Origin: Escherichia phage anhysbys
Sequence record: NC_052656.1
Direction: 5' to 3' (one strand)
DNA: 64,000 bases
This document shows, piece by piece, positions 6,134 through 23,807 of this stretch (position 1 is its first letter; every line of letters begins with the position of its first letter). The position numbers and the translations under genes are program-made. The notes under the pieces were generated by a model, which did no database searches, had not been told where the DNA came from, and saw nothing but the letters and a program-made list of their open reading frames with translations.

Positions 6134-6472
6134 ATGTTTAGTAAAGAAATGAGAGAGGTGATCGCTACTCTGGTAGTTGATCATGGTGTTGAAGTTGAGC
6201 GTCACGTTTGGAAAGATGAGCCTCCTTTCTTTGATTTGGCATCACGGGCTAAAAGTCACATGTATCTCCTTGAAGATGATAAGGATTTTATTCTGCGTAT
6301 GCGTTATGATCGAGAGTTTAGAATTCCTCTTGACACAGATCCTGATGATGTAGTATTGTGGTTGGCAGAGCATTTCGCATTTAACGCTCTACATGGAAGA
6401 AGTTTTGGTAATGAACGTTGGGATACCATTTGTCGTAAACATAATATTGAACCAGAATACGGGAGTATGTAA
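6134..6472 (+). CDS. hypothetical protein
   Basis: Track frame; start refined to MFSKEM after GGAGG RBS. Confidence 0.55.
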   Translation: MFSKEMREVIATLVVDHGVEVERHVWKDEPPFFDLASRAKSHMYLLEDDKDFILRMRYDREFRIPLDTDPDDVVLWLAEHFAFNALHGRSFGNERWDTICRKHNIEPEYGSM

Positions 6473-8623: not shown

Positions 8624-9832
8624 ATGAGTAAAGCTAAAAGTTGGGAAGAATATAAAGCAGAATGCGAGATCATAGCTCTCTCTAAAGGATATAAAATTTT
8701 AGGCCATAAAGAATGGAAAGGGTGTGAGACTAAACTCCTGATAGAATGTCCTGTGCACGGTGTATGGGATACTTGTAAAATAGCTAACTTTAAAAGTGGG
8801 AAGTCTTGCCCTTCTTGTGGTGAATTAACAAAAAGGGAGAAGAGAACGAAGAGCAGGGAGGACCAAGAGAAAGAGTGTGAAGAAGAAGCGTTAAAAAGAG
8901 GTTGGCGCTTCTTGGGTATCTACGGAGAATGGCTCAAAGCTAAAAAGACACGAGTAATCTTACGTTGTGACAGGGGTCACGAGTTTAACACATCTACCAT
9001 AGACAACTTTAAGAATAATAAACAAGGTTGTCCAGTTTGTCGTTTAGAGGATATAGGTAAACACCATAAGCTTTCAGACGATCAGCACATACAAGATTTC
9101 ATGCGTACGGGTGTGTTTCCCGAAGGCACTACCTTCACTAATACAGGGGAAAGAGCTGGGAGGAGCGAAATACTTTGGAGTGTATTTTGCCCTATCTGTG
9201 CTATAGATGAGTTTTCCAAAGCTGGGGTAGGAACGGGATATTTTATCGGTAGAGGTAGTTCATTAAAACAGGGTATGCGCCCTTGTCGTTGTTCTGCCAG
9301 TTACAAATATTCTGAAGAAGAGATGACATTTAGAGCAAAAAGTGACGTAGAACGTAGAGGGTACGTGTGGTTGGGGTGGATCGGGAAAGCTTCTATACTT
9401 GGGGATTTTGAATATGGTTGCAAGGATCATGGGAAACATGTGTGTAGTGCTAATAATTGGTTAAATAAGGGGTGTGGTTGCCCTGGTTGTGCAGGTATGA
9501 ATCAACAACAAGCCTACATTAATTATATTTACGATGAGCAAGATATTATCTGTGCACTGAAGTTTGGTATTGCTAATAATAGTGATCGCCGTATCAAAGA
9601 ACAAAATAGTCGTAATGTGTTTACTATGAAACAGAACCAAGTGTGGCACTTCCCTACTGTGAAGCAATGCAAAGATGCAGAGAAGCGTTGTAAACGTGTC
9701 CTTAACACGGAAGCGGTGAGCAAATATGCTATGCCAGATGGCTACACAGAAACAGTAGAGTTATCTTGCATGGCCTCAATACAAAACATTTATAAACTTT
9801 ATGGTGGAATATTACAGGAGGAAACATGTTAG
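8624..9832 (+). CDS. cysteine-rich zinc-ribbon repeat protein with C-terminal GIY-YIG-like segment
   Basis: Repeated C..HG...CP.CG / C.RGHEF...CPVCR modules; C-terminal YINYIYDEQD ... FGIANNSDRR resembles GIY / YIG+Arg motifs. Confidence 0.6.
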   Translation: MSKAKSWEEYKAECEIIALSKGYKILGHKEWKGCETKLLIECPVHGVWDTCKIANFKSGKSCPSCGELTKREKRTKSREDQEKECEEEALKRGWRFLGIYGEWLKAKKTRVILRCDRGHEFNTSTIDNFKNNKQGCPVCRLEDIGKHHKLSDDQHIQDFMRTGVFPEGTTFTNTGERAGRSEILWSVFCPICAIDEFSKAGVGTGYFIGRGSSLKQGMRPCRCSASYKYSEEEMTFRAKSDVERRGYVWLGWIGKASILGDFEYGCKDHGKHVCSANNWLNKGCGCPGCAGMNQQQAYINYIYDEQDIICALKFGIANNSDRRIKEQNSRNVFTMKQNQVWHFPTVKQCKDAEKRCKRVLNTEAVSKYAMPDGYTETVELSCMASIQNIYKLYGGILQEETC

Positions 9833-10191
9833 TTGACGTTCAAATTATGCGCAACGAAAGAATGGACTTCTTTGAAGCAGTAGAGAAACATCTGATTCGA
9901 TGGGACTATGAATTTGTTCCTGCTGGATGTGGACCAGTAGAGCATTTAGCGGAAGACGATGATGTATACATGATCATTCGTCAAGTGTACCAGACAGACC
10001 AGTGTGAAGAAACTCCTGAACTAATTTTGTTTGAGTGCAAAGATCTTGCAAAATATTTTGACTATGGCGGAAAAGAGGGTCATAATCTCTCCAGATACAA
10101 TAAACGTCTACTTATCTTAGACTACATGCGGAACAACAAACACAAACTCATCGACGCAGACGCAGTTTATGGCTACTGGTGGATGGATTAA
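9826..10191 (+). CDS. hypothetical protein
   Basis: ORF track 121 aa. Confidence 0.55.
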   Translation: MLVDVQIMRNERMDFFEAVEKHLIRWDYEFVPAGCGPVEHLAEDDDVYMIIRQVYQTDQCEETPELILFECKDLAKYFDYGGKEGHNLSRYNKRLLILDYMRNNKHKLIDADAVYGYWWMD

Positions 10192-10204
10192 CAAAGGAGA
10201 AACT

Positions 10205-10393
10205 ATGGCACGTTTAGCAGATAACCCTGTATTCTACCCCGTTCTTGATCTTTATGATGAATTGACATATGTTGTGGAGCGGTATAATTACAATGAAGAC
10301 CTCTTGGAGACAAACCTTAAAGTAGTTCTGATGAAAGCCTATCAGCAAGGGCAACGTGAAATTTTGGAGAGTATGAAAAATGCGAATAACTGA
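10205..10393 (+). CDS. hypothetical protein
   Basis: Track frame; start refined to MARLADNP after AAAGGAG. Confidence 0.5.
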   Translation: MARLADNPVFYPVLDLYDELTYVVERYNYNEDLLETNLKVVLMKAYQQGQREILESMKNANN

Positions 10394-10922
10394 TGAATAT
10401 GTATTCTTCTTTTCACATAAAGATGTGTTTAGTAATTGGTATATTGCACCCTTTACAGAAACCGAACCAGGTTACAATCAGACATTTAATTGTGTCGAAC
10501 AATACATGATGTGGCGTAAAGCTTTGCTTTTTAATGATCACAACACTGCACAGGCTATTCTGACTCATAGTTTGATACGGAAAGATGAGAAGATCCAAGC
10601 TTATTACAAACGTATGGGTAGGGCAGTGTCAGATTTTGATAACAACGTATGGGAAGAGAACCGTGAGCGTATTGTTATGCGAGGTTTATGCTTGAAATAT
10701 GTACAGAATCCAGATTTGTATGCAGACTTACACCTTTACCAATACAAAACGTTTGTTGAAGCAAGTCCTTACGATAAGGTTTACGGTATTGGAATGGGAA
10801 TGTATGAACCAGGGGTGCTAAATCCGGTCAACTGGAAAGGGCAAAATCTTTTAGGTAAATATCATAACAAACTGATCGAAATACTTTTCCCAGACAAAAT
10901 ACCGCAGAGACGATATTTGTGA
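10380..10922 (+). CDS. NADAR-domain (YbiA-like) protein
   Basis: FSN(W/F), CVEQYMMWRKA, MGR, Y(D/G)IGMG and LLGKYH.. blocks align with E. coli YbiA family from memory. Confidence 0.75.
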   Translation: MRITDEYVFFFSHKDVFSNWYIAPFTETEPGYNQTFNCVEQYMMWRKALLFNDHNTAQAILTHSLIRKDEKIQAYYKRMGRAVSDFDNNVWEENRERIVMRGLCLKYVQNPDLYADLHLYQYKTFVEASPYDKVYGIGMGMYEPGVLNPVNWKGQNLLGKYHNKLIEILFPDKIPQRRYL

Positions 10923-10976
10923 TATTTTAACTTTTTTCATTTTTAGAACAAAGGCGTCACTTTGTAGCACAGAAAT

Positions 10977-11012
10977 AAGGCTCCTACAGCACCGTAGAGA
11001 GCCTATTATTTT
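10977..11012 (+). terminator. rho-independent terminator
   Basis: AGGCTCCTAC...GTAGAGAGCCT stem then ATTATTTT, after NADAR gene. Confidence 0.55.
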
Positions 11013-11166
11013 GTCCTATACAAACCCTTGTCTTTTTCAGTTTGCATCACTAGGATTCGATCTGAGTGGGTTCCTGAAGGTCTGCCAATAAGATTAAAGG
11101 TTATCTCAAATTCCCATTACCTATTATCTCAAAAATCCCTCAAATTATTTAAACTTTTTAAGAATT

Positions 11167-11212
11167 TACAAAAGTGAAAGTTGAAAACCAAAATTTAAAG
11201 TTTAGGAAAATT
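11167..11212 (+). repeat. AT-rich ~45-bp direct repeat, copy 1
   Basis: TTACAAAAGTGAAAGTTGAAAACCAAAATTTAAAGTTTAGGAAAATT. Confidence 0.6.
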
Positions 11213-11303
11213 ATCTTAAAATGTTAGATACAAAACAAAACTCAAAAGTCAAGGAAAATTTTAAAAATTTTGCGCGCCCACAGTATTTAAAGTTTTTTTG
11301 CTT

Positions 11304-11350
11304 TTACAAAAATGAAAGTACAAAAGCAAAATTTAAAGTTTACAAAAATT
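11304..11350 (+). repeat. AT-rich ~45-bp direct repeat, copy 2
   Basis: TTACAAAAATGAAAGTACAAAAGCAAAATTTAAAGTTTACAAAAATT. Confidence 0.6.
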
Positions 11351-11389
11351 TATGCAGATGGGGATGAGAAGAGTTCTCATGTGGAAATG

Positions 11390-11470
11390 CAAATGATAAT
11401 GATTCGCATTTAGGTTTATAAATGAGAATGATTCTTATTTAATAAAGTAAATGATAATCATTCTCATTTA
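11390..11470 (+). promoter_or_regulatory. three tandem Fur-box-like 21-bp palindromic sites
   Basis: AAATGATAATGATTCGCATTT / AAATGAGAATGATTCTTATTT / AAATGATAATCATTCTCATTT, about 30 bp apart. Confidence 0.5.
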
Positions 11471-11727
11471 GAGAATGACGCGCAGGGGCGGTGTTTGTCT
11501 CGCGCTCCCGTGTCCCCTCGCCATGTAATAAGAATAACAGATCCAACCAGGAAAGCAAGCGATTATTTTATCTTTACATTTCTTTACGAATATATAGCGC
11601 CCAGCCTACCGGCGATCAACCTTCCAACCAGTGCCCCTGGTATGTTAGCCCCGCCTTTACGCCGTGGGGTGGCGCTTCCTCTTCTGTATGTAAAACAGTA
11701 TAAGCCCTATCCCTGGGCTTGTCAAGA

Positions 11728-11994
11728 TTATTTTTTGTTTTCTTGCCAGGTCAGGACACCTAGCCAAAAATGAATATCACCTTTTCCCCAATGTGGTATA
11801 TTGCTTTCTTTCCCACCTTCACGCGCCCAGGTAAAACCGCCCGTGTAACTTTGTAATTGATAACTATCCTCGACCTTATAATCTGATAGGTTGAGAACGG
11901 TTTCAACCTTTAAGCCCGTTGCGCTTGCTACCTGGTGTACCGTGCCGCCTTGCCAGCCCAATGAGTGCATAAGGTGTAATGTAGTAGTTGTCAT
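11728..11994 (-). CDS. hypothetical protein in GC-rich island (doubtful)
   Basis: ORF track 88 aa; atypical GC-rich composition; isolated on minus strand. Confidence 0.25.
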   Translation of the reverse strand: MTTTTLHLMHSLGWQGGTVHQVASATGLKVETVLNLSDYKVEDSYQLQSYTGGFTWAREGGKESNIPHWGKGDIHFWLGVLTWQENKK

Positions 11995-12104
11995 GGTATC
12001 GCCCTTTCTTTGTTGTGCGCCCTGGTTGGCGCGGTAGAAAGATGATAGCCTTTTCCTTTATATATAGCAAGCAAAAAGAAAATAAAAAAGATTGAAAAAG
12101 TGGT

Positions 12105-12132
12105 TGACGTTCCTCACCTGGTAGCGTAGTAT
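12105..12132 (+). promoter_or_regulatory. candidate promoter for first gene of plus array
   Basis: TTGACG-16-TAGTAT; ~130 nt leader to ATG 12268. Confidence 0.4.
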
Positions 12133-12267
12133 TCATCTTGTCGAGGGGGGCGCGGCACAACGACAATAAACAACAGGAGGGCGCAATGTAGGACGGGCAA
12201 AGGTGAGGATCTCCATAATCCACCGTCAACCAACAAAAAACATCATTCATCACCTGGAGTTAAAATC

Positions 12268-12465
12268 ATGGCAACATTGCACATAGTAGCGAAAGCAGGA
12301 CAAATCAGCGTCGTGGTAAACGGTTTTACTGAGTTCAGTCATCCCCAGGATGATCATGAAACGGTTTTATCTTTCATTGATTCCCTGTTAGAAATGGGAG
12401 TCATTACAGAAGACCAGCACGCTACAAAGTGCAAGCGCGTTAATCAAATTGCAGGGATAGAATAA
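12268..12465 (+). CDS. hypothetical protein
   Basis: ORF track 65 aa; GGAG RBS; first gene of plus array. Confidence 0.5.
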   Translation: MATLHIVAKAGQISVVVNGFTEFSHPQDDHETVLSFIDSLLEMGVITEDQHATKCKRVNQIAGIE

Positions 12466-12471
12466 AAAGTA

Positions 12472-12530
12472 TTGACAACAAACAACAACCTGATAAGATG
12501 TATCACATAGGGCGGGAAGTGGTTTCCCGC
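12472..12530 (+). promoter_or_regulatory. promoter + 5' stem-loop cassette (PeSL-like)
   Basis: TTGACA, -10 TAAGAT, then GCGGGAA-GTGGT-TTCCCGC hairpin before gene 12556. Confidence 0.6.
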
Positions 12531-12555
12531 TCGTAACAGAAGAGAGATTATCATC

Positions 12556-12828
12556 ATGGCATCATATAGCGCAACAATGATCGTAGCTGGCACAACTGGT
12601 AAACCTATGAGCGGTGGCGGATCTTTCGCTAATATCAACATTGACGGGCGTTTATCCCTGGACGCAGCGATCACCGTGGCGCGGGAAACATTTAAGAAAG
12701 AATGTAAATTCAATAAACAAGATTATCTCGGTTTCGCTATTGAAAAAACCGCGCGTTTTGTTGATTATAAAAGCCCAAAAATGGTTGATACTACACTAAA
12801 AGCGCAAGATGTAGCGTTTTTGCTTTAA
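12556..12828 (+). CDS. hypothetical protein
   Basis: ORF track 90 aa; preceded by promoter/stem-loop cassette. Confidence 0.6.
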   Translation: MASYSATMIVAGTTGKPMSGGGSFANINIDGRLSLDAAITVARETFKKECKFNKQDYLGFAIEKTARFVDYKSPKMVDTTLKAQDVAFLL

Positions 12829-12831
12829 GGC

Positions 12832-12886
12832 TTGACATTAACGAATAATTTGTTAATATGTTACATAAAGCGGGAATAGTTCCCGC
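12832..12886 (+). promoter_or_regulatory. promoter + 5' stem-loop cassette
   Basis: TTGACA, TTAATAT, GCGGGAA-TAG-TTCCCGC. Confidence 0.6.
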
Positions 12887-12904
12887 TATTTGTAAGGTGG
12901 TAGA

Positions 12905-13162
12905 ATGTTTTACATCAAATTAAAAGGTCACGTGATCGCGTTCAAAGATAACGCTTTTTACAGATTAGCAAAATATGCGTTAATACATCCCCACTATGTT
13001 TATATAAGGGGGCGTGATGAAATAAATATCTTTGATCAAACAACATGCGAGAACATCGAGATCCGCAAGGTTGGCGTACGTGATTATCGTACATCTTTCT
13101 ACCCTTGCAAGGATTCAGCAAGTCTTTTTAAAGTATGCCAATTGTTGAAAAAAGGTGGTTAA
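12905..13162 (+). CDS. hypothetical protein
   Basis: ORF track 85 aa; cassette upstream. Confidence 0.55.
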   Translation: MFYIKLKGHVIAFKDNAFYRLAKYALIHPHYVYIRGRDEINIFDQTTCENIEIRKVGVRDYRTSFYPCKDSASLFKVCQLLKKGG

Positions 13163-13721
13163 TATGGGCCGCGAATATGTGATCCAGTCTTGGGTAAAAC
13201 ATGAAGCAGATGATCCGCGCATCGTTCCCGATCATCTTATCGATGAATCCACGGGATATAGCGGTGAGCAAATAGGTAACAGATTAGCACGTAGTAACGG
13301 CAACGTAAAAGCGCGTTATGTGCGCCCTGGTTGGCTGGCAAATGGTAACGCTGATTTATCCAGTGCGGAAGATGCGAGCGACGGCGCGAAAGATAATCCT
13401 TTGTACAAAATTGATCCGGCTTTTCGTGTCCTGGATGAATACCCCAGCAAGATAGCGGCGCTTGATGAAGCTCTGGAAAGTAAGCGCATCACCTGGACCG
13501 CTTACAACATGGCAAAAAACGTACTTGATGGTAAATTGATTCAAGCCGAAAGAAAATTAGCCAAAATTGCAGCCATAGCCCAGGAGGAAGACGAGGAGAC
13601 AACGGAAGAGGAAGAGTACGAAGAGATCCCGCCGTTGTTGTGTGTTGATGCTTTTCCTGATTATCAGCCGACAGAGGAAGAAAAAAGGATCGCACTAGAA
13701 AACTTTGAAAATAGTCTTTGA
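13155..13721 (+). CDS. hypothetical protein with acidic C-terminus
   Basis: ORF track 188 aa. Confidence 0.6.
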   Translation: MVNMGREYVIQSWVKHEADDPRIVPDHLIDESTGYSGEQIGNRLARSNGNVKARYVRPGWLANGNADLSSAEDASDGAKDNPLYKIDPAFRVLDEYPSKIAALDEALESKRITWTAYNMAKNVLDGKLIQAERKLAKIAAIAQEEDEETTEEEEYEEIPPLLCVDAFPDYQPTEEEKRIALENFENSL

Positions 13722-13775
13722 CATATCGCCGCCACTGGCATAATATTTACCACGTAGGGCGGCAATGGTGCCGCT
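13718..13775 (+). promoter_or_regulatory. promoter + 5' stem-loop cassette
   Basis: TTGACA, CATAAT, GGCGGCA-ATGG-TGCCGC. Confidence 0.6.
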
Positions 13776-13783
13776 CATAGTGA

Positions 13784-13879
13784 AATTATGCAAGAGGTTT
13801 ACAATGATTAATAAAGAAAATAGCTTGACGGTTGGAACGATTAACGCTATCATTTTCGCCGTTCCATTTTGGGTTGTAG
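13784..13879 (+). CDS. tiny hydrophobic protein (~31 aa)
   Basis: Own translation MINKENSLTVGTINAIIFAVPFWVVVAAIIF; sits between two cassettes. Confidence 0.4.
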
Positions 13880-13887
13880 TAGCGGCT

Positions 13888-13949
13888 ATTATTTTCTAAA
13901 AAATATTCTTGACAACGTTTTTTAATCTGATAAGATGTATCACATAGGG
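13888..13949 (+). promoter_or_regulatory. promoter + 5' stem-loop cassette
   Basis: TTGACA, TAAGAT, GGCGGCGGAA-TAC-TTCCCCGCC. Confidence 0.6.
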
Positions 13950-13989
13950 CGGCGGAATACTTCCCCGCCAAAACAAAAAGGGTAACACA

Positions 13990-14352
13990 ATGAGCAAGCA
14001 AATTAATACTATCATGTTTAATCTGGTATCTTTCCGCGACGATATGAAAAATTTACCACGTGAAACGGTTGATATTCATGTTTCAGCTTATCGCGCCCTT
14101 ATTGACATGTTACCGCTAAAACGTGATCAATATGCCGCTAACACGATGCTTAATGCTATGCTTAAAAAGATGATTCAAACGGATCTCACCCTAGCGTATG
14201 AGTATCAAGGGCGCTTATATGCAACTTATAACAAGGCGGTACCTGGTCTGGGAAGTACCGAAGAGTTGCACGGCTTAAACCTGGATCAAAACACTTGGGA
14301 TAGTATGCGCCGCGTTATGGTATGGGCCGAAAGCGGTAAAATTTACGAATAA
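13990..14352 (+). CDS. hypothetical protein
   Basis: ORF track 120 aa; cassette upstream. Confidence 0.6.
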   Translation: MSKQINTIMFNLVSFRDDMKNLPRETVDIHVSAYRALIDMLPLKRDQYAANTMLNAMLKKMIQTDLTLAYEYQGRLYATYNKAVPGLGSTEELHGLNLDQNTWDSMRRVMVWAESGKIYE

Positions 14353-21890: not shown

Positions 21891-22097
21891 GCCCGAACAA
21901 TGTTGATAGCTTTCGCCTATGAAAAACCGACACAGAACAAAATTGAATAAATCGCGGTATCGAGCTAATCAACCATTAAACGAATAACCATACCTCCCAG
22001 GGTAACAGGCTGTTAGAGAGCCATTTATAGCGGTTAAAATCGATCAACAACCAACAACAAACCATCAAAAACACCCTTTTACCTCCTTTCTAGTGCA

Positions 22098-22539
22098 ATG
22101 ATAACCATTATCATCTACCCATGATTATCTATGCAATATAAGCGCATAATTATAATGTTGATAATAGTTCGCAACAACTAACCAACAAACAACATAAAAC
22201 AAGAAGCAAACTAATCATAATCAAAGGAATAATAGCAAGATGATTGATAACGACAAACAATCAAACCATGATGAATACTAAGCAAGATAACGATAACACG
22301 ACAAAACAACCAACTAACGAACAATAACAAACGAAACCATTAAAATAATAACTATTGCCATAATAGTGACTGAATGAAATCATTACAAAACGAATCATTC
22401 CCAGGATCATCATTAGCACGCTATGCCGGACACATAGCGAGCTAATAATAAGCCAACTACACCCCAACAATCATAACCATCGGTGATGGTTATTTCTTGT
22501 TACTGCGTAGCTTGCAATAATTGCAAGCGTAATTACGCT
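22098..22539. repeat. cluster of perfect palindromes in ORF-free region
   Basis: ATGATAACCATTATCAT (22098), ATAACCATCGGTGATGGTTAT (22474), GCTTGCAATAATTGCAAGC (22510), AGCGTAATTACGCT (22526). Confidence 0.5.
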
Positions 22540-22732
22540 TACACTTATTGCGCTGGCTTATTATTAGCATTATATGTAATTACCAAGATCATAACATTAA
22601 CGCAATAACAATAATCATTGTAATGGTTACAATATGAAATCATTGGCAAGATGAATAATTGCACGTAGCAACATGAGCGAATAGCGACAGGTTGCATAGT
22701 GTGCACATAATAGAATAAAAGTCAATAATTTT

Positions 22733-22855
22733 GGGGGCGAAATGTTACCGCCACAGGCGGGAATGTTGAGCACTAAGAAAAGAGATAAACCTTAATCATG
22801 GGGGCGTAAATATCCGCAGGATTGCCAACGGCGATCCGGTAGGATGTTGAGCATC
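22733..22855 (+). repeat. two tandem related units beginning TGGGGGCG and ending GATGTTGAGCA
   Basis: Unit 1 ~22733-22775, unit 2 ~22799-22855; internal GC stems. Confidence 0.4.
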
Positions 22856-22923
22856 TTCTCTTAAACGTAAATAAAATCAGAAAATTCTTGATTTATTTTA
22901 GTTTTTATGTTAATAAACGTTTA

Positions 22924-22950
22924 AATAATAATCATTCTCATATGAATAAT
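22924..22950 (+). promoter_or_regulatory. Fur-box-like site
   Basis: AATAATAATCATTCTCATATGAATAAT. Confidence 0.4.
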
Positions 22951-23101
22951 AGTCTGCTTGTCATGAGCGGGATTAGTTGACATTGTTCCGTCATATGATG
23001 AGGTTGCCAACCTATTGATAAATAAGTGTTTGTGTGATTTATAATCAAGTGGCCCACCTTGTCGCTATGTTGGCATGAGCCTTGCATAAGTCATTGAATA
23101 C

Positions 23102-23130
23102 GAATGATAATTATTCTCATTCGCATGATA
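23102..23130 (+). promoter_or_regulatory. Fur-box-like site
   Basis: GAATGATAATTATTCTCATTCGCATGATA. Confidence 0.4.
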
Positions 23131-23462
23131 TTTGGGAATTGTCGCTGCGTGGACCTGACGGCCCGAAAATTCGCGTTAAGCACTTCTTACGTATGCGCCA
23201 TGATTTTTGCCATATGATATTGATTCTATTAGATATTCTTGCCATGATTGCCATGAAACAGGGTGTCCCGAAATAATCTCTCCCCGTAGATATTTTGGGT
23301 TACTTTTTATACAAGAGTGGGGTGTCAAAAATAATCGATATATATGGGATAATTGATAGGAATCCCCTATGGTAATTCGATTGTAATTGCCGAAGATTGA
23401 TCGTATGATGTTGGTGATTGATGATTGCCATGAAAGATGGCTAACGATGAGAGGAGATTGTC

Positions 23463-23807
23463 ATGCAAGAGAGTAAAAATGTTCCGTTAAGTAGTTTACG
23501 TCTAATGAAGTTTTACAAAGCTTGGCTTGCTGGTGAGGTAGAAGGTCACACAACGAGTGGTTTGTGCATATGTTTGATTAAGTATGTGGAGGGAACATAT
23601 CCTGATGAACTGTTACCTCGTCTACAACAAGAGATGAAATCCCAGTTTATTGGTGCAGGACTAGATTACAATTTTCCGTTTAATGAAGGTGGTTATGAGG
23701 AATACACCTTCGAACATAAAAAACATATTTGCCATAAAAACAAACATCGTATACAATGGGTGTTAGATAGAATTCAGGATTATGAAGGAGAGAAAAATGA
23801 CAAATAA
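23463..23807 (+). CDS. FY-WL/GLC/WVKDR family protein, paralog 1
   Basis: ORF track 114 aa; family motifs FYKAWL, SGLCICL, QFIGAGLDYNFPFN, RIQWVLDRI. Confidence 0.65.
   Translation: MQESKNVPLSSLRLMKFYKAWLAGEVEGHTTSGLCICLIKYVEGTYPDELLPRLQQEMKSQFIGAGLDYNFPFNEGGYEEYTFEHKKHICHKNKHRIQWVLDRIQDYEGEKNDK

What the first reader, a model, noticed from the sequence alone, without database searches (positions are those of the whole stretch)
10923..12267. Second ORF-poor region with AT-rich 45-bp direct repeats and an atypical GC-rich island
Two near-identical 45-bp AT-rich direct repeats (11167 and 11304) precede the Fur-like sites. From about 11470 to 12260 the composition switches to markedly GC-rich, unlike the rest of the window, and holds only doubtful ORFs (11728-11994 minus; Pro-rich plus-strand frames). 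The GC island could be a structured RNA, a horizontally acquired fragment or a recombination scar.
Basis: seen in the sequence. Interest (0 to 1): 0.6.

Follow-up and report, generated by a model that had tools for sequence, protein, structure and literature searches.

The report
Conserved phage RNA and Fur-box control region
This gene-poor stretch of a phAPEC8-like E. coli phage is a control region conserved across two phage subfamilies, made of AT-rich repeats, a row of binding sites for the host iron regulator Fur, two promoters driving a structured non-coding RNA, and one small real gene; nobody has annotated or explained it.

Summary
11100-11470 is the most AT-rich 370 bp of the window (24.8% GC). 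11470-12260 is its most GC-rich 790 bp (47% against 38.8%). The repeats at 11167 and 11305 match at 39 of 45 positions.

The "GC island" has three parts. (1) 11475-11725 is non-coding and conserved into Vequintavirinae at about 70-76%. On the minus strand it carries two sigma-70 promoters (P1, P2), a roughly 87-nt two-hairpin element "B" with a covarying pair, and a GC hairpin that abuts the Fur-box array. (2) 11728-11994 is a real 88-aa gene, with homologs down to 43% identity and dN/dS of 0.24-0.39. (3) 12139-12267 is a long 5' leader that some relatives replace with a short one.

There is no Rfam hit and no E. coli match, and codon GC lies within the phage's range. Horizontal acquisition and a recombination scar are therefore not supported.

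My proposed mechanism is inferred, not shown. Early leftward transcription from P1 and P2 would be stopped by the hairpin and by Fe-Fur bound to the array, insulating the AT-rich repeats. T5-like phages carry related Fur-like palindrome arrays. I found no paper describing this module.

The parts
10978..11012 (.). Hairpin AGGCTC/GAGCCT with inner CTAC/GTAG, followed by a T-run on the plus strand and a U-rich tail on the minus strand. Probably a bidirectional terminator that closes the upstream NADAR-gene operon and bounds the module on the left.
   Evidence: Read directly from the sequence. The simple terminator scan did not list it. Conserved in Phapecoctavirus relatives.
11141..11350 (+). AT-rich repeat block. 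Two 72-nt copies (11141-11212 and 11279-11350, 82% identical) flank a degenerate middle unit, giving a period of about 69 bp. The motif WATTTAAASTTTW occurs exactly four times, all in the same orientation (11146, 11192, 11284, 11330).
   Evidence: The three-unit pattern is kept in Justusliebigvirus alia and in Klebsiella phage KP13-26. This is the lowest-GC stretch of the window.
11364..11480 (.). Array of four Fur-operator-like palindromes at 29-bp spacing: 11364-11380 (weak), 11392-11410, 11421-11439 and 11450-11468. A GAATGA half-site at 11473-11478 abuts the GC hairpin.
   Evidence: 6 sites in the window against 0.2 expected; best site 16 of 19 to GATAATGATAATCATTATC, consensus from PMC4506495. 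The last box is the best-conserved feature measured across 32 relatives (0.93 majority fraction).
11475..11524 (-). GC-rich hairpin HP-A at the 5' end of the predicted P2 transcript. The outer stem is AUGGCG/CGUCAU, the inner stems vary between clades, and the apical loop is conserved (GAGACAAWCACC).
   Evidence: All 23 distinct variants fold as hairpins (-8 to -22 kcal/mol). The outer stem is 90.6% paired on the minus strand against 76.6% on the plus strand. Pair 198-242 is G-U in 25 sequences and G-C in 7, which would read A-C on the plus strand.
11531..11558 (-). Promoter P2: TTGCTT, 16-nt spacer, TATTCT. Relatives have TTGCAA-17-TATATT or TTGATC-16-TATTAT.
   Evidence: 19 of 32 sequences pass a strict sigma-70 match at the same column; the window's own TATTCT is a weaker form that the scan does not list. 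(hexamers 0.77-0.82 conserved against 0.63 for the spacer).
11571..11590 (+). Two TCTTTACA direct repeats 11 bp apart, just upstream of the P2 -35 element. Possibly an upstream or activator site.
   Evidence: Unique in the window. Majority fraction 0.90 across relatives.
11604..11690 (-). Element B, a two-hairpin RNA immediately downstream of P1. It has a purine-rich 5' tail, hairpin H1 (CGCC-ACCCCAC-GGCG) and a long irregular hairpin H2/H3 with a variable tip. It contains a 28-nt invariant core.
   Evidence: 96.3% of cells paired; pair 49-71 is A-U in 15 sequences and G-C in 15; covariance model R1 finds one copy per phage, 63-107 bits; an invariant G-U that would be C-A on the plus strand. 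Two contigs replace the tip with GC-UUCG-GC.
11697..11725 (-). Promoter P1: TTGACA, 17-nt spacer, TATACT (11 of 12 matches). Its spacer holds the terminator hairpin of the 88-aa gene (11702-11720).
   Evidence: Conserved at the same column in 31 of 32 relatives with a variable spacer. In L018 an HNH endonuclease gene sits downstream of P1 and B in the same orientation.
11728..11994 (-). Real 88-aa gene (phrog_19316, function unknown). The N-terminal 36 residues are nearly invariant and the C-terminal half is variable.
   Evidence: dN/dS 0.24-0.39. (AlphaFold2 pLDDT 95.8, all-alpha). (no fold relative in the PDB).
12042..12070 (-). Promoter-like site TTGCTA-17-TATCAT for the 88-aa gene, with an A/T-rich upstream tract.
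   Evidence: Conserved in relatives.
12104..12267 (+). Promoter TTGACG-17-TAGTAT and a GC-rich 5' leader of about 125 nt for the 65-aa gene at 12268. The leader is replaced by a short hairpin leader of about 40 nt in nepoznato and ESCO13.
   Evidence: hits covering 90% of the query in two pieces.

Best explanation
The stretch is a conserved, mostly non-coding control module in the early region of phAPEC8-like and rV5-like myoviruses. It is not foreign DNA.

Read right to left on the minus strand, it contains:
- a real 88-aa gene (11994 to 11728) with its own promoter and terminator;
- host-type promoter P1, which transcribes a roughly 87-nt two-hairpin RNA element B (11690 to 11604);
- two TTTACA repeats and a second promoter, P2, whose transcript starts with the GC-rich hairpin HP-A (11524 to 11475);
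- directly behind that hairpin, four Fur-operator-like palindromes (11480 to 11364);
- three AT-rich repeat units of about 69 bp (11350 to 11141), closed by a hairpin terminator (10978-11012).

The GC island is the sum of the RNA elements, the small gene and a GC-rich mRNA leader.

Shown: the conservation, the promoters and their orientation, the fold and its strand bias, the statistics of the Fur-like sites, and the coding status of the gene.

Inferred: host RNA polymerase fires leftwards from P1 and P2 early in infection. HP-A and Fe-Fur bound to the array then act together as a terminator and roadblock. This keeps transcription out of the AT-rich repeats, a cis-acting DNA element, when iron is plentiful, and lets it through when Fur leaves the DNA. 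B would act as a structured RNA, either in cis on that transcription or in trans.
For: Cross-subfamily DNA conservation is confined to window positions 11383-11694, while the flanking genes do not align.

P1 is present in 31 of 32 sequences and P2 in 19 of 32 at fixed alignment columns. No plus-strand promoter is conserved. The hexamers are better conserved than the spacers.

For the B fold, 96.3% of cells are paired and 0 of 500 shuffles reach the observed covariation score. Sliding the 3' partners drops pairing to 19-46%.

Strand evidence: cells that form standard pairs only on the minus strand number 30 against 0 for B and 37 against 10 for the HP-A outer stem. Two contigs carry a UUCG tetraloop replacement that reads correctly only on the minus strand.

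An HNH endonuclease gene has inserted downstream of P1 and B in the sense orientation in L018.

Fur-like 19-mers occur 6 times against 0.2 expected, and the best site matches the consensus at 16 of 19 positions.

The unit of promoter or incoming transcription, then GC hairpin, then Fur box recurs. It is duplicated in tandem in rV5. In a T5-like phage it sits behind minus-strand genes.

The 88-aa gene has 21 homologs and dN/dS of 0.24-0.39.
Against: No expression data exist for any of these RNAs.

Single-sequence folding is no more stable than shuffled sequence (z = -0.27 and +0.43). Comparing minus- and plus-strand energies alone does not decide the strand.

Most B helices are invariant. Only three pairs covary, and two of those do so in only two sequences. 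The constraint could therefore act on DNA or on protein binding rather than on RNA structure.

HP-A lacks a proper U-tract, so it may not terminate on its own.

The Fur boxes lie downstream of the conserved promoters rather than over them, which is not the classical mode of Fur repression. Fur binding has not been tested.

Nothing is known to lie left of the array that needs protecting.
Confidence: 0.45

Rival explanations
1. A trans-acting small regulatory RNA locus. P1 would make an RNA of about 215 nt (B through HP-A) and P2 a hairpin RNA of about 55 nt. Their conserved single-stranded parts (the purine-rich 5' tail, the ACCCCAC loop and the GAGACAAWCACC loop) would base-pair with host or phage mRNAs or bind a host protein. 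The Fur boxes would be an unrelated neighbour or would merely define the 3' end.
For: The promoters, the fold and the conserved loops are all consistent with this. The 28-nt invariant core exceeds what the structure alone needs.
Against: There is no Rfam match at E <= 1 and no canonical U-tailed terminator. The HP-A loop complement is not enriched elsewhere in the window (11 matches against 8.4 expected). This reading does not explain why hairpin and Fur box stay adjacent in three phage groups.
Confidence: 0.2
2. A transcription-activated or RNA-primed origin of replication. The AT-rich 69-bp repeats would be iterons and an unwinding element. P1 and P2 would supply the activating or priming transcript, as at T4 oriF, the T7 primary origin and ColE1.
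For: The repeats occupy the lowest-GC 370 bp of the 64 kb and are same-orientation repeats. The promoters point at them. The repeat pattern is conserved across genera. The rV5 authors could not locate an origin (PMC3606486).
Against: There are no DnaA boxes here. The related T5 region is reported not to be the origin; T5 origins map near the genome centre (10.1101/866236). No initiator protein has been linked to the repeats and no replication data exist.
Confidence: 0.15
3. A DNA-only platform for host factors. The Fur boxes, and in T5 the DnaA boxes, would recruit host proteins to the incoming genome for anchoring, protection or titration. The RNA-like conservation would be incidental to protein binding sites.
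For: The Fur boxes are the best-conserved elements (0.93). T5-like phages carry about eight of them beside DnaA boxes in the first-injected DNA.
Against: This does not explain the covarying pair, the compensatory replacements of the hairpin tip, the G-U strand bias or the conserved promoters.
Confidence: 0.1
4. A horizontally acquired fragment or a recombination scar.
For: This is the highest-GC stretch of the window. The 12139-12267 leader is present or absent among close relatives. The 88-aa gene exists as two alleles about 68% identical inside flanks that are 94-98% identical.
Against: No E. coli genome matched. The region is syntenic and conserved in more than 140 phages and into a second subfamily. 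The gene's GC of 44.6% and GC3 of 41.6% lie inside the range of the phage's long ORFs.
Confidence: 0.03

Closest known systems
Bacteriophage T5 'Repeat Region 3', the injection-stop (iss) untranslated region of the terminal repeat (Davison 2020, bioRxiv 10.1101/866236)
   Same: Both are large conserved ORF-free regions that combine arrays of direct repeats with a run of AT-rich palindromes. BLAST links the palindromes to this window's Fur-like boxes (query 482-576). Both regions are more conserved than the neighbouring genes.
   Different: The T5 region lies in the terminal repeat of a siphovirus and carries paired DnaA boxes and GTCGGATTYGCACA repeats. It has no element B (R1 finds nothing in L023). 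The paper does not identify the palindromes as Fur boxes. Two-step injection is not known for phAPEC8-like phages.
Fur operators of the enterobacterial iron regulon (consensus GATAATGATAATCATTATC) and the Fur-repressed sRNA RyhB
   Same: The palindromes have the right length, symmetry and sequence (up to 16 of 19). They sit next to a small structured RNA gene.
   Different: The boxes lie about 50 nt downstream of the conserved promoter rather than over its -35 and -10 elements. There are four in phase at 29 bp. The RNA has no similarity to RyhB or to any Rfam family.
Transcription-dependent phage and plasmid origins (T4 oriF/oriG, the T7 primary origin, ColE1 RNA II); from established knowledge
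   Same: The layout matches: one or more promoters, then a transcript, then an AT-rich, repeat-bearing region downstream.
   Different: No replication evidence exists and no primer-processing signals were identified. Fur boxes are interposed between promoter and AT-rich region.
HK022 put RNAs (cis-acting two-hairpin antiterminator RNAs just downstream of early promoters); from established knowledge
   Same: B is a two-hairpin RNA of about 70 nt that begins about 15 nt after an early host-type promoter and is followed by a terminator-like hairpin.
   Different: There is no sequence relationship and no test of antitermination. The resemblance is one of architecture only.

Membership tests
Fur box (Fe-Fur operator) | Match to the 19-bp consensus GATAATGATAATCATTATC and its dyad symmetry | tested here: met
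   Site 11447-11465 matches at 16 of 19; five further overlapping registers match at 13-14 of 19. Six sites at >=13 of 19 lie in 11100-11480, against 0.56 in shuffles. The phage consensus AATGAKAATSATTMTCATT occurs 6 times against 0.2 expected.
Fur box (Fe-Fur operator) | Overlaps the -35/-10 of the promoter it represses | tested here: not met
   No conserved promoter lies inside the array. The conserved promoters P1 and P2 lie 50-250 nt to the right and fire towards it.
Fur box (Fe-Fur operator) | Binding by Fur in a metal-dependent manner | not testable with these tools
   Requires gel shift, footprinting or ChIP.
Any described RNA family (Rfam 15) | Covariance-model match | tested here: not met
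   No match at E <= 1 in 9000-14000 on either strand. No tRNA or tmRNA was found.
Structured non-coding RNA (generic) | Non-coding: no conserved reading frame | tested here: met
   1-nt indels among relatives that are 96-98% identical, and 5-8-nt indels between subfamilies. The plus-strand ORFs have no Pfam or PHROG hits.
Structured non-coding RNA (generic) | Base pairs maintained by compensatory change | tested here: inconclusive
   One pair covaries strongly (A-U in 15, G-C in 15) and two more do so in two sequences. Eleven of the 19 pairs never vary. The hairpin tip is replaced by other stems, including a UUCG tetraloop. The HP-A stems differ between clades but cannot be placed in one register.
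Structured non-coding RNA (generic) | Own promoter and terminator; transcript detected | tested here: inconclusive
   The promoters are conserved. The candidate terminator HP-A lacks a U-tract. No transcript data are available.
Replication origin | AT-rich unwinding region with iterated repeats | tested here: met
Replication origin | DnaA boxes, or mapped initiator binding or initiation | tested here: not met
   No TTATNCACA in the region.
Protein-coding gene (ORF 11728-11994) | Homologs across divergent genomes with purifying selection | tested here: met
   phrog_19316, E = 1.5e-52. 21 homologs at 43-99% identity. dN/dS 0.24-0.39. Confident fold prediction.
Horizontally acquired island | Atypical codon composition, a donor match, or patchy distribution | tested here: not met
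   GC3 of 41.6% is within the 22-43% range of the phage's long ORFs. No E. coli match. Present in all close relatives.

The most novel reading that the evidence does not exclude
Virulent enterobacterial phages of three lineages (phAPEC8-like, rV5-like and T5-like) carry a dedicated iron-sensing switch. An array of host-Fur operators sits directly behind a GC hairpin and acts as a conditional roadblock on early non-coding transcription. This would couple a cis-acting repeat element, whether an origin, an injection or anchoring site, or an antisense control, to the iron status of the host. Element B would be a new cis-acting RNA, put-like or primer-like, that decides which transcripts pass.
Probability: 0.2. 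Interest if true: 0.8.

Novelty: new variant of a known kind. Interest (0 to 1): 0.6.

Why it matters
More than 140 sequenced phages carry this block, many of them candidates for therapy against E. coli, Klebsiella, Salmonella and Cronobacter. It is left blank in annotations or covered by spurious "hypothetical protein" calls. Across subfamilies it is the best-conserved DNA in its neighbourhood, so it is probably important for the phage.

If host Fur really binds it, these strictly lytic phages read the host's iron state. That would bear on how they perform in iron-limited infection sites. It would also give a testable identity to the unexplained palindromes of the classical T5 injection-stop region. 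Element B would be a new phage RNA family.

Tried and rejected
- Rfam scan at a permissive threshold: nothing. tRNA and tmRNA scan: nothing.
- BLAST of the GC island against 5,426 E. coli genomes: nothing.
- Pfam on all candidate ORFs: only the upstream NADAR gene hits.
- Single-sequence folding z-scores are not significant on either strand. Energy differences between strands are too small to decide the strand. RNAalifold on the full 283-column MAFFT alignment recovers only parts of the fold.
- A Fur-repressed plus-strand promoter (TTGAAT-18-CAGAAT) over the last box was considered and rejected. The critical -11 A is missing in about 40% of relatives (CTGAAT, CGGAAT), and no plus-strand promoter is conserved.
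- DnaA boxes are absent.
- Targets of the HP-A loop within the window are at chance level.
- Six completed literature searches for Fur boxes or small RNAs in these phages found no description of the module.
- Genome-terminus or pac-site reading: record start points are arbitrary and gave no signal, so I did not pursue it.

Full report
**Identity of the window and check of the observation.** The region is 93-98% identical to many Phapecoctavirus (phAPEC8-like, Stephanstirmvirinae) genomes, and 64 records cover at least 80% of it. The compositional contrast is real and extreme for this window. 11100-11470 has 24.8% GC, the lowest of all 370-bp stretches. 11470-12260 has 47.0% GC, the single highest 790-bp stretch, against a window mean of 38.8%. 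The repeats match at 39 of 45 positions with an offset of 138; shuffles of the same AT-rich DNA reach at most 30. They are part of a longer 72-nt repeat at 82% identity with a 29-nt sub-repeat. The Fur-like palindromes form an array at 29-bp spacing.

**The minus-strand ORF is a gene.** ORF 11728-11994 matches phrog_19316 over its full length (E = 1.5e-52). It has 21 homologs at 43-99% identity in a 5.8-billion-protein database, including one in Serratia phage Kashira. The alignment shows an almost invariant N-terminal 36 residues and a variable C-terminal half. Pairwise dN/dS against seven orthologs is 0.24-0.39.
- The gene has a plausible promoter (12070..12042), a ribosome-binding site, and a hairpin terminator directly after its stop codon (11720..11702).
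- AlphaFold2 gives a confident all-helical model (pLDDT 95.8). It has no significant relative among solved structures, so the function stays unknown.
- Its GC (44.6%) and GC3 (41.6%) lie at the upper end of the range of 26 long ORFs of the window, but inside it.
- Phages whose flanks are 94-98% identical to the window carry an allele only about 68% identical in protein. The gene is a mosaic hot spot, not a foreign insert.

**The left third of the island is conserved non-coding DNA.** A sensitive BLASTN shows that window positions 11383-11694 alone match rV5-like Vequintavirinae at 69-76% identity. The matches include Cronobacter CR3 and GAP31, Klebsiella BIS47 and KB57, Pectobacterium POP15 and Salmonella GEC_vB_MG. 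They fall mostly in stretches annotated as empty. Exact-pattern scans of viral, metagenome and genome collections added 30 more loci, nearly all from contigs of 140-153 kb. Alignments contain indels that are not multiples of three, including 1-nt indels between phages 96-98% identical. The plus-strand ORFs of 70 and 92 aa have no family hits. Rfam gives nothing at E <= 1, and no E. coli genome matches.

**Anatomy of the conserved block.** Two sigma-70-type promoters lie on the minus strand.
- P1 (TTGACA-17-TATACT, 11725..11697) is found at the same alignment column in 31 of 32 sequences.
- P2 (TTGCTT-16-TATTCT here, 11558..11531) is found in 19 of 32 under strict criteria.
- No plus-strand promoter is conserved. 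In both promoters the hexamers are better conserved (0.77-0.82) than the spacers (0.63).

Element B (11690 to 11604) follows P1. It folds in every sequence into the same two hairpins. On the alignment 96.3% of cells pair, against 19-46% when the partners are slid. One pair is A-U in 15 sequences and G-C in 15, including between close relatives, and two further pairs flip in two sequences. Two contigs replace the hairpin tip with GC-UUCG-GC, a tetraloop only when read on the minus strand. An invariant G-U in B would be C-A on the plus strand. In the outer stem of HP-A, 37 cells pair only on the minus strand against 10 only on the plus strand.

P2's transcript would begin with HP-A (11524 to 11475). 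Its stems differ between clades while the loop GAGACAAWCACC is kept. In one IMG/VR phage an HNH endonuclease gene (phrog_953, E = 7.6e-79) has inserted beside B, downstream of P1 and in the sense orientation, with its own Shine-Dalgarno sequence. That fits an active leftward P1 whose transcript runs beyond B.

Caveats: most helices never vary, single-sequence stability is unremarkable, and no transcript data exist.

**Fur boxes and repeats.** The consensus Fur box is GATAATGATAATCATTATC (PMC4506495). The best site here matches at 16 of 19. Six registers at >=13 of 19 lie in 11100-11480, against 0.56 in shuffles. The phage's own palindrome consensus occurs six times in 64 kb against 0.2 expected. 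The last box abuts HP-A in nearly all relatives and is the best-conserved feature measured (0.93).
- rV5 carries the unit of Fur box, GC hairpin and minus-strand -10 element twice in tandem, and lacks B.
- A T5-like phage has about eight such palindromes beside perfect DnaA boxes and nine short repeats, plus a further GC hairpin and Fur box behind minus-strand genes.
- This is T5's Repeat Region 3, the injection-stop region. Its palindromes are described as unexplained, and its DnaA boxes are argued not to be an origin (10.1101/866236).
- The AT-rich repeats keep a three-unit pattern of about 69 bp in three Stephanstirmvirinae lineages. Vequintavirinae have different, GATC-bearing repeats in the same place.

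**The right third.** 11995-12135 holds diverging promoters for the 88-aa gene and for the 65-aa gene at 12268. 12139-12267 is a long GC-rich leader. Nepoznato and ESCO13 replace it with a short hairpin leader of the type seen before neighbouring early genes.

**Interpretation.** The island is a composite of native, conserved elements. I favour a cis-regulatory reading. Early leftward transcription from P1 and P2 meets HP-A and a Fur-occupied array, which together insulate the repeat block in iron-replete cells. The steps after promoter recognition are inference.

Rivals are a trans-acting small RNA, a transcription-activated origin, and a DNA-only platform for host factors. Horizontal transfer and a recombination scar are essentially excluded. 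I found no publication describing this module. The rV5 genome paper only marks a "non-coding" box and reports that the origin could not be located.

Noticed in passing
window 21950-23460: Another ORF-poor stretch of about 1.5 kb (no ORF of 70 aa or more) carries three more Fur-box-like sites, at 22097, 22924 and 23103. By eye, the one at 23103 overlaps a plus-strand promoter, TTGCAT-18-GATAAT, in the classical Fur-repression layout, upstream of the gene at 23463.
   Followed up: partly
L018:6290-7040 (IMG/VR contig of 145,759 bp): An HNH homing-endonuclease gene (197 aa, phrog_953) is inserted next to element B, duplicating CTACCGGCGAT. It separates B from P2 and HP-A by about 840 bp. A weak second B-like match lies at 6300-6385 (E = 0.0095).
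   Followed up: partly
window 11728-11994, compared with L001, L002 and L006: The 88-aa gene exists as two alleles about 68% identical in protein among phages whose flanking DNA is 94-98% identical. All the divergence lies in residues 37-75.
   Followed up: partly
window 10380-10922: The upstream 180-aa gene is a NADAR-domain protein (PF08719, E = 1.8e-35). Several GenBank records label the gene under the match 'GTP cyclohydrolase II', and one labels a gene here 'putative capsid protein'. These look like annotation errors.
   Followed up: no
L005:2038-2316 (phage rV5, ORF 198): The annotated 92-aa ORF 198 of rV5 lies over the tandem Fur-box, hairpin and promoter units. It is probably not a gene.
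   Followed up: no
L023:1200-1830 and 2020-2090 (T5-like phage HildyBeyeler): About eight Fur-box-like palindromes lie between nine GTCGGATTYGCACA repeats and three perfect DnaA boxes (TTATCCACA). A separate GC hairpin plus Fur box sits right behind the stop codon of a minus-strand gene. The literature on the T5 injection-stop region does not call these Fur boxes.
   Followed up: partly
window 11571-11590: TCTTTACAtTTCTTTACgAA: two TTTACA half-sites one helical turn apart, 90% conserved across subfamilies. From memory it resembles tandem OmpR-type sites. This was not tested.
   Followed up: no
window 12175-12190 and 12472-12555: The long leader contains a strong Shine-Dalgarno sequence followed by ATG-TAG, a start-stop mini-ORF. 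Neighbouring early genes share a cassette of promoter, CACATAGGGCGG...CCGCTC hairpin and Shine-Dalgarno sequence, which seems to serve as a recombination joint between phages.
   Followed up: no
hit list: Records named as Acinetobacter or Campylobacter phages are 70-95% identical to this coliphage region. The host labels are likely wrong or reflect contamination.
   Followed up: no
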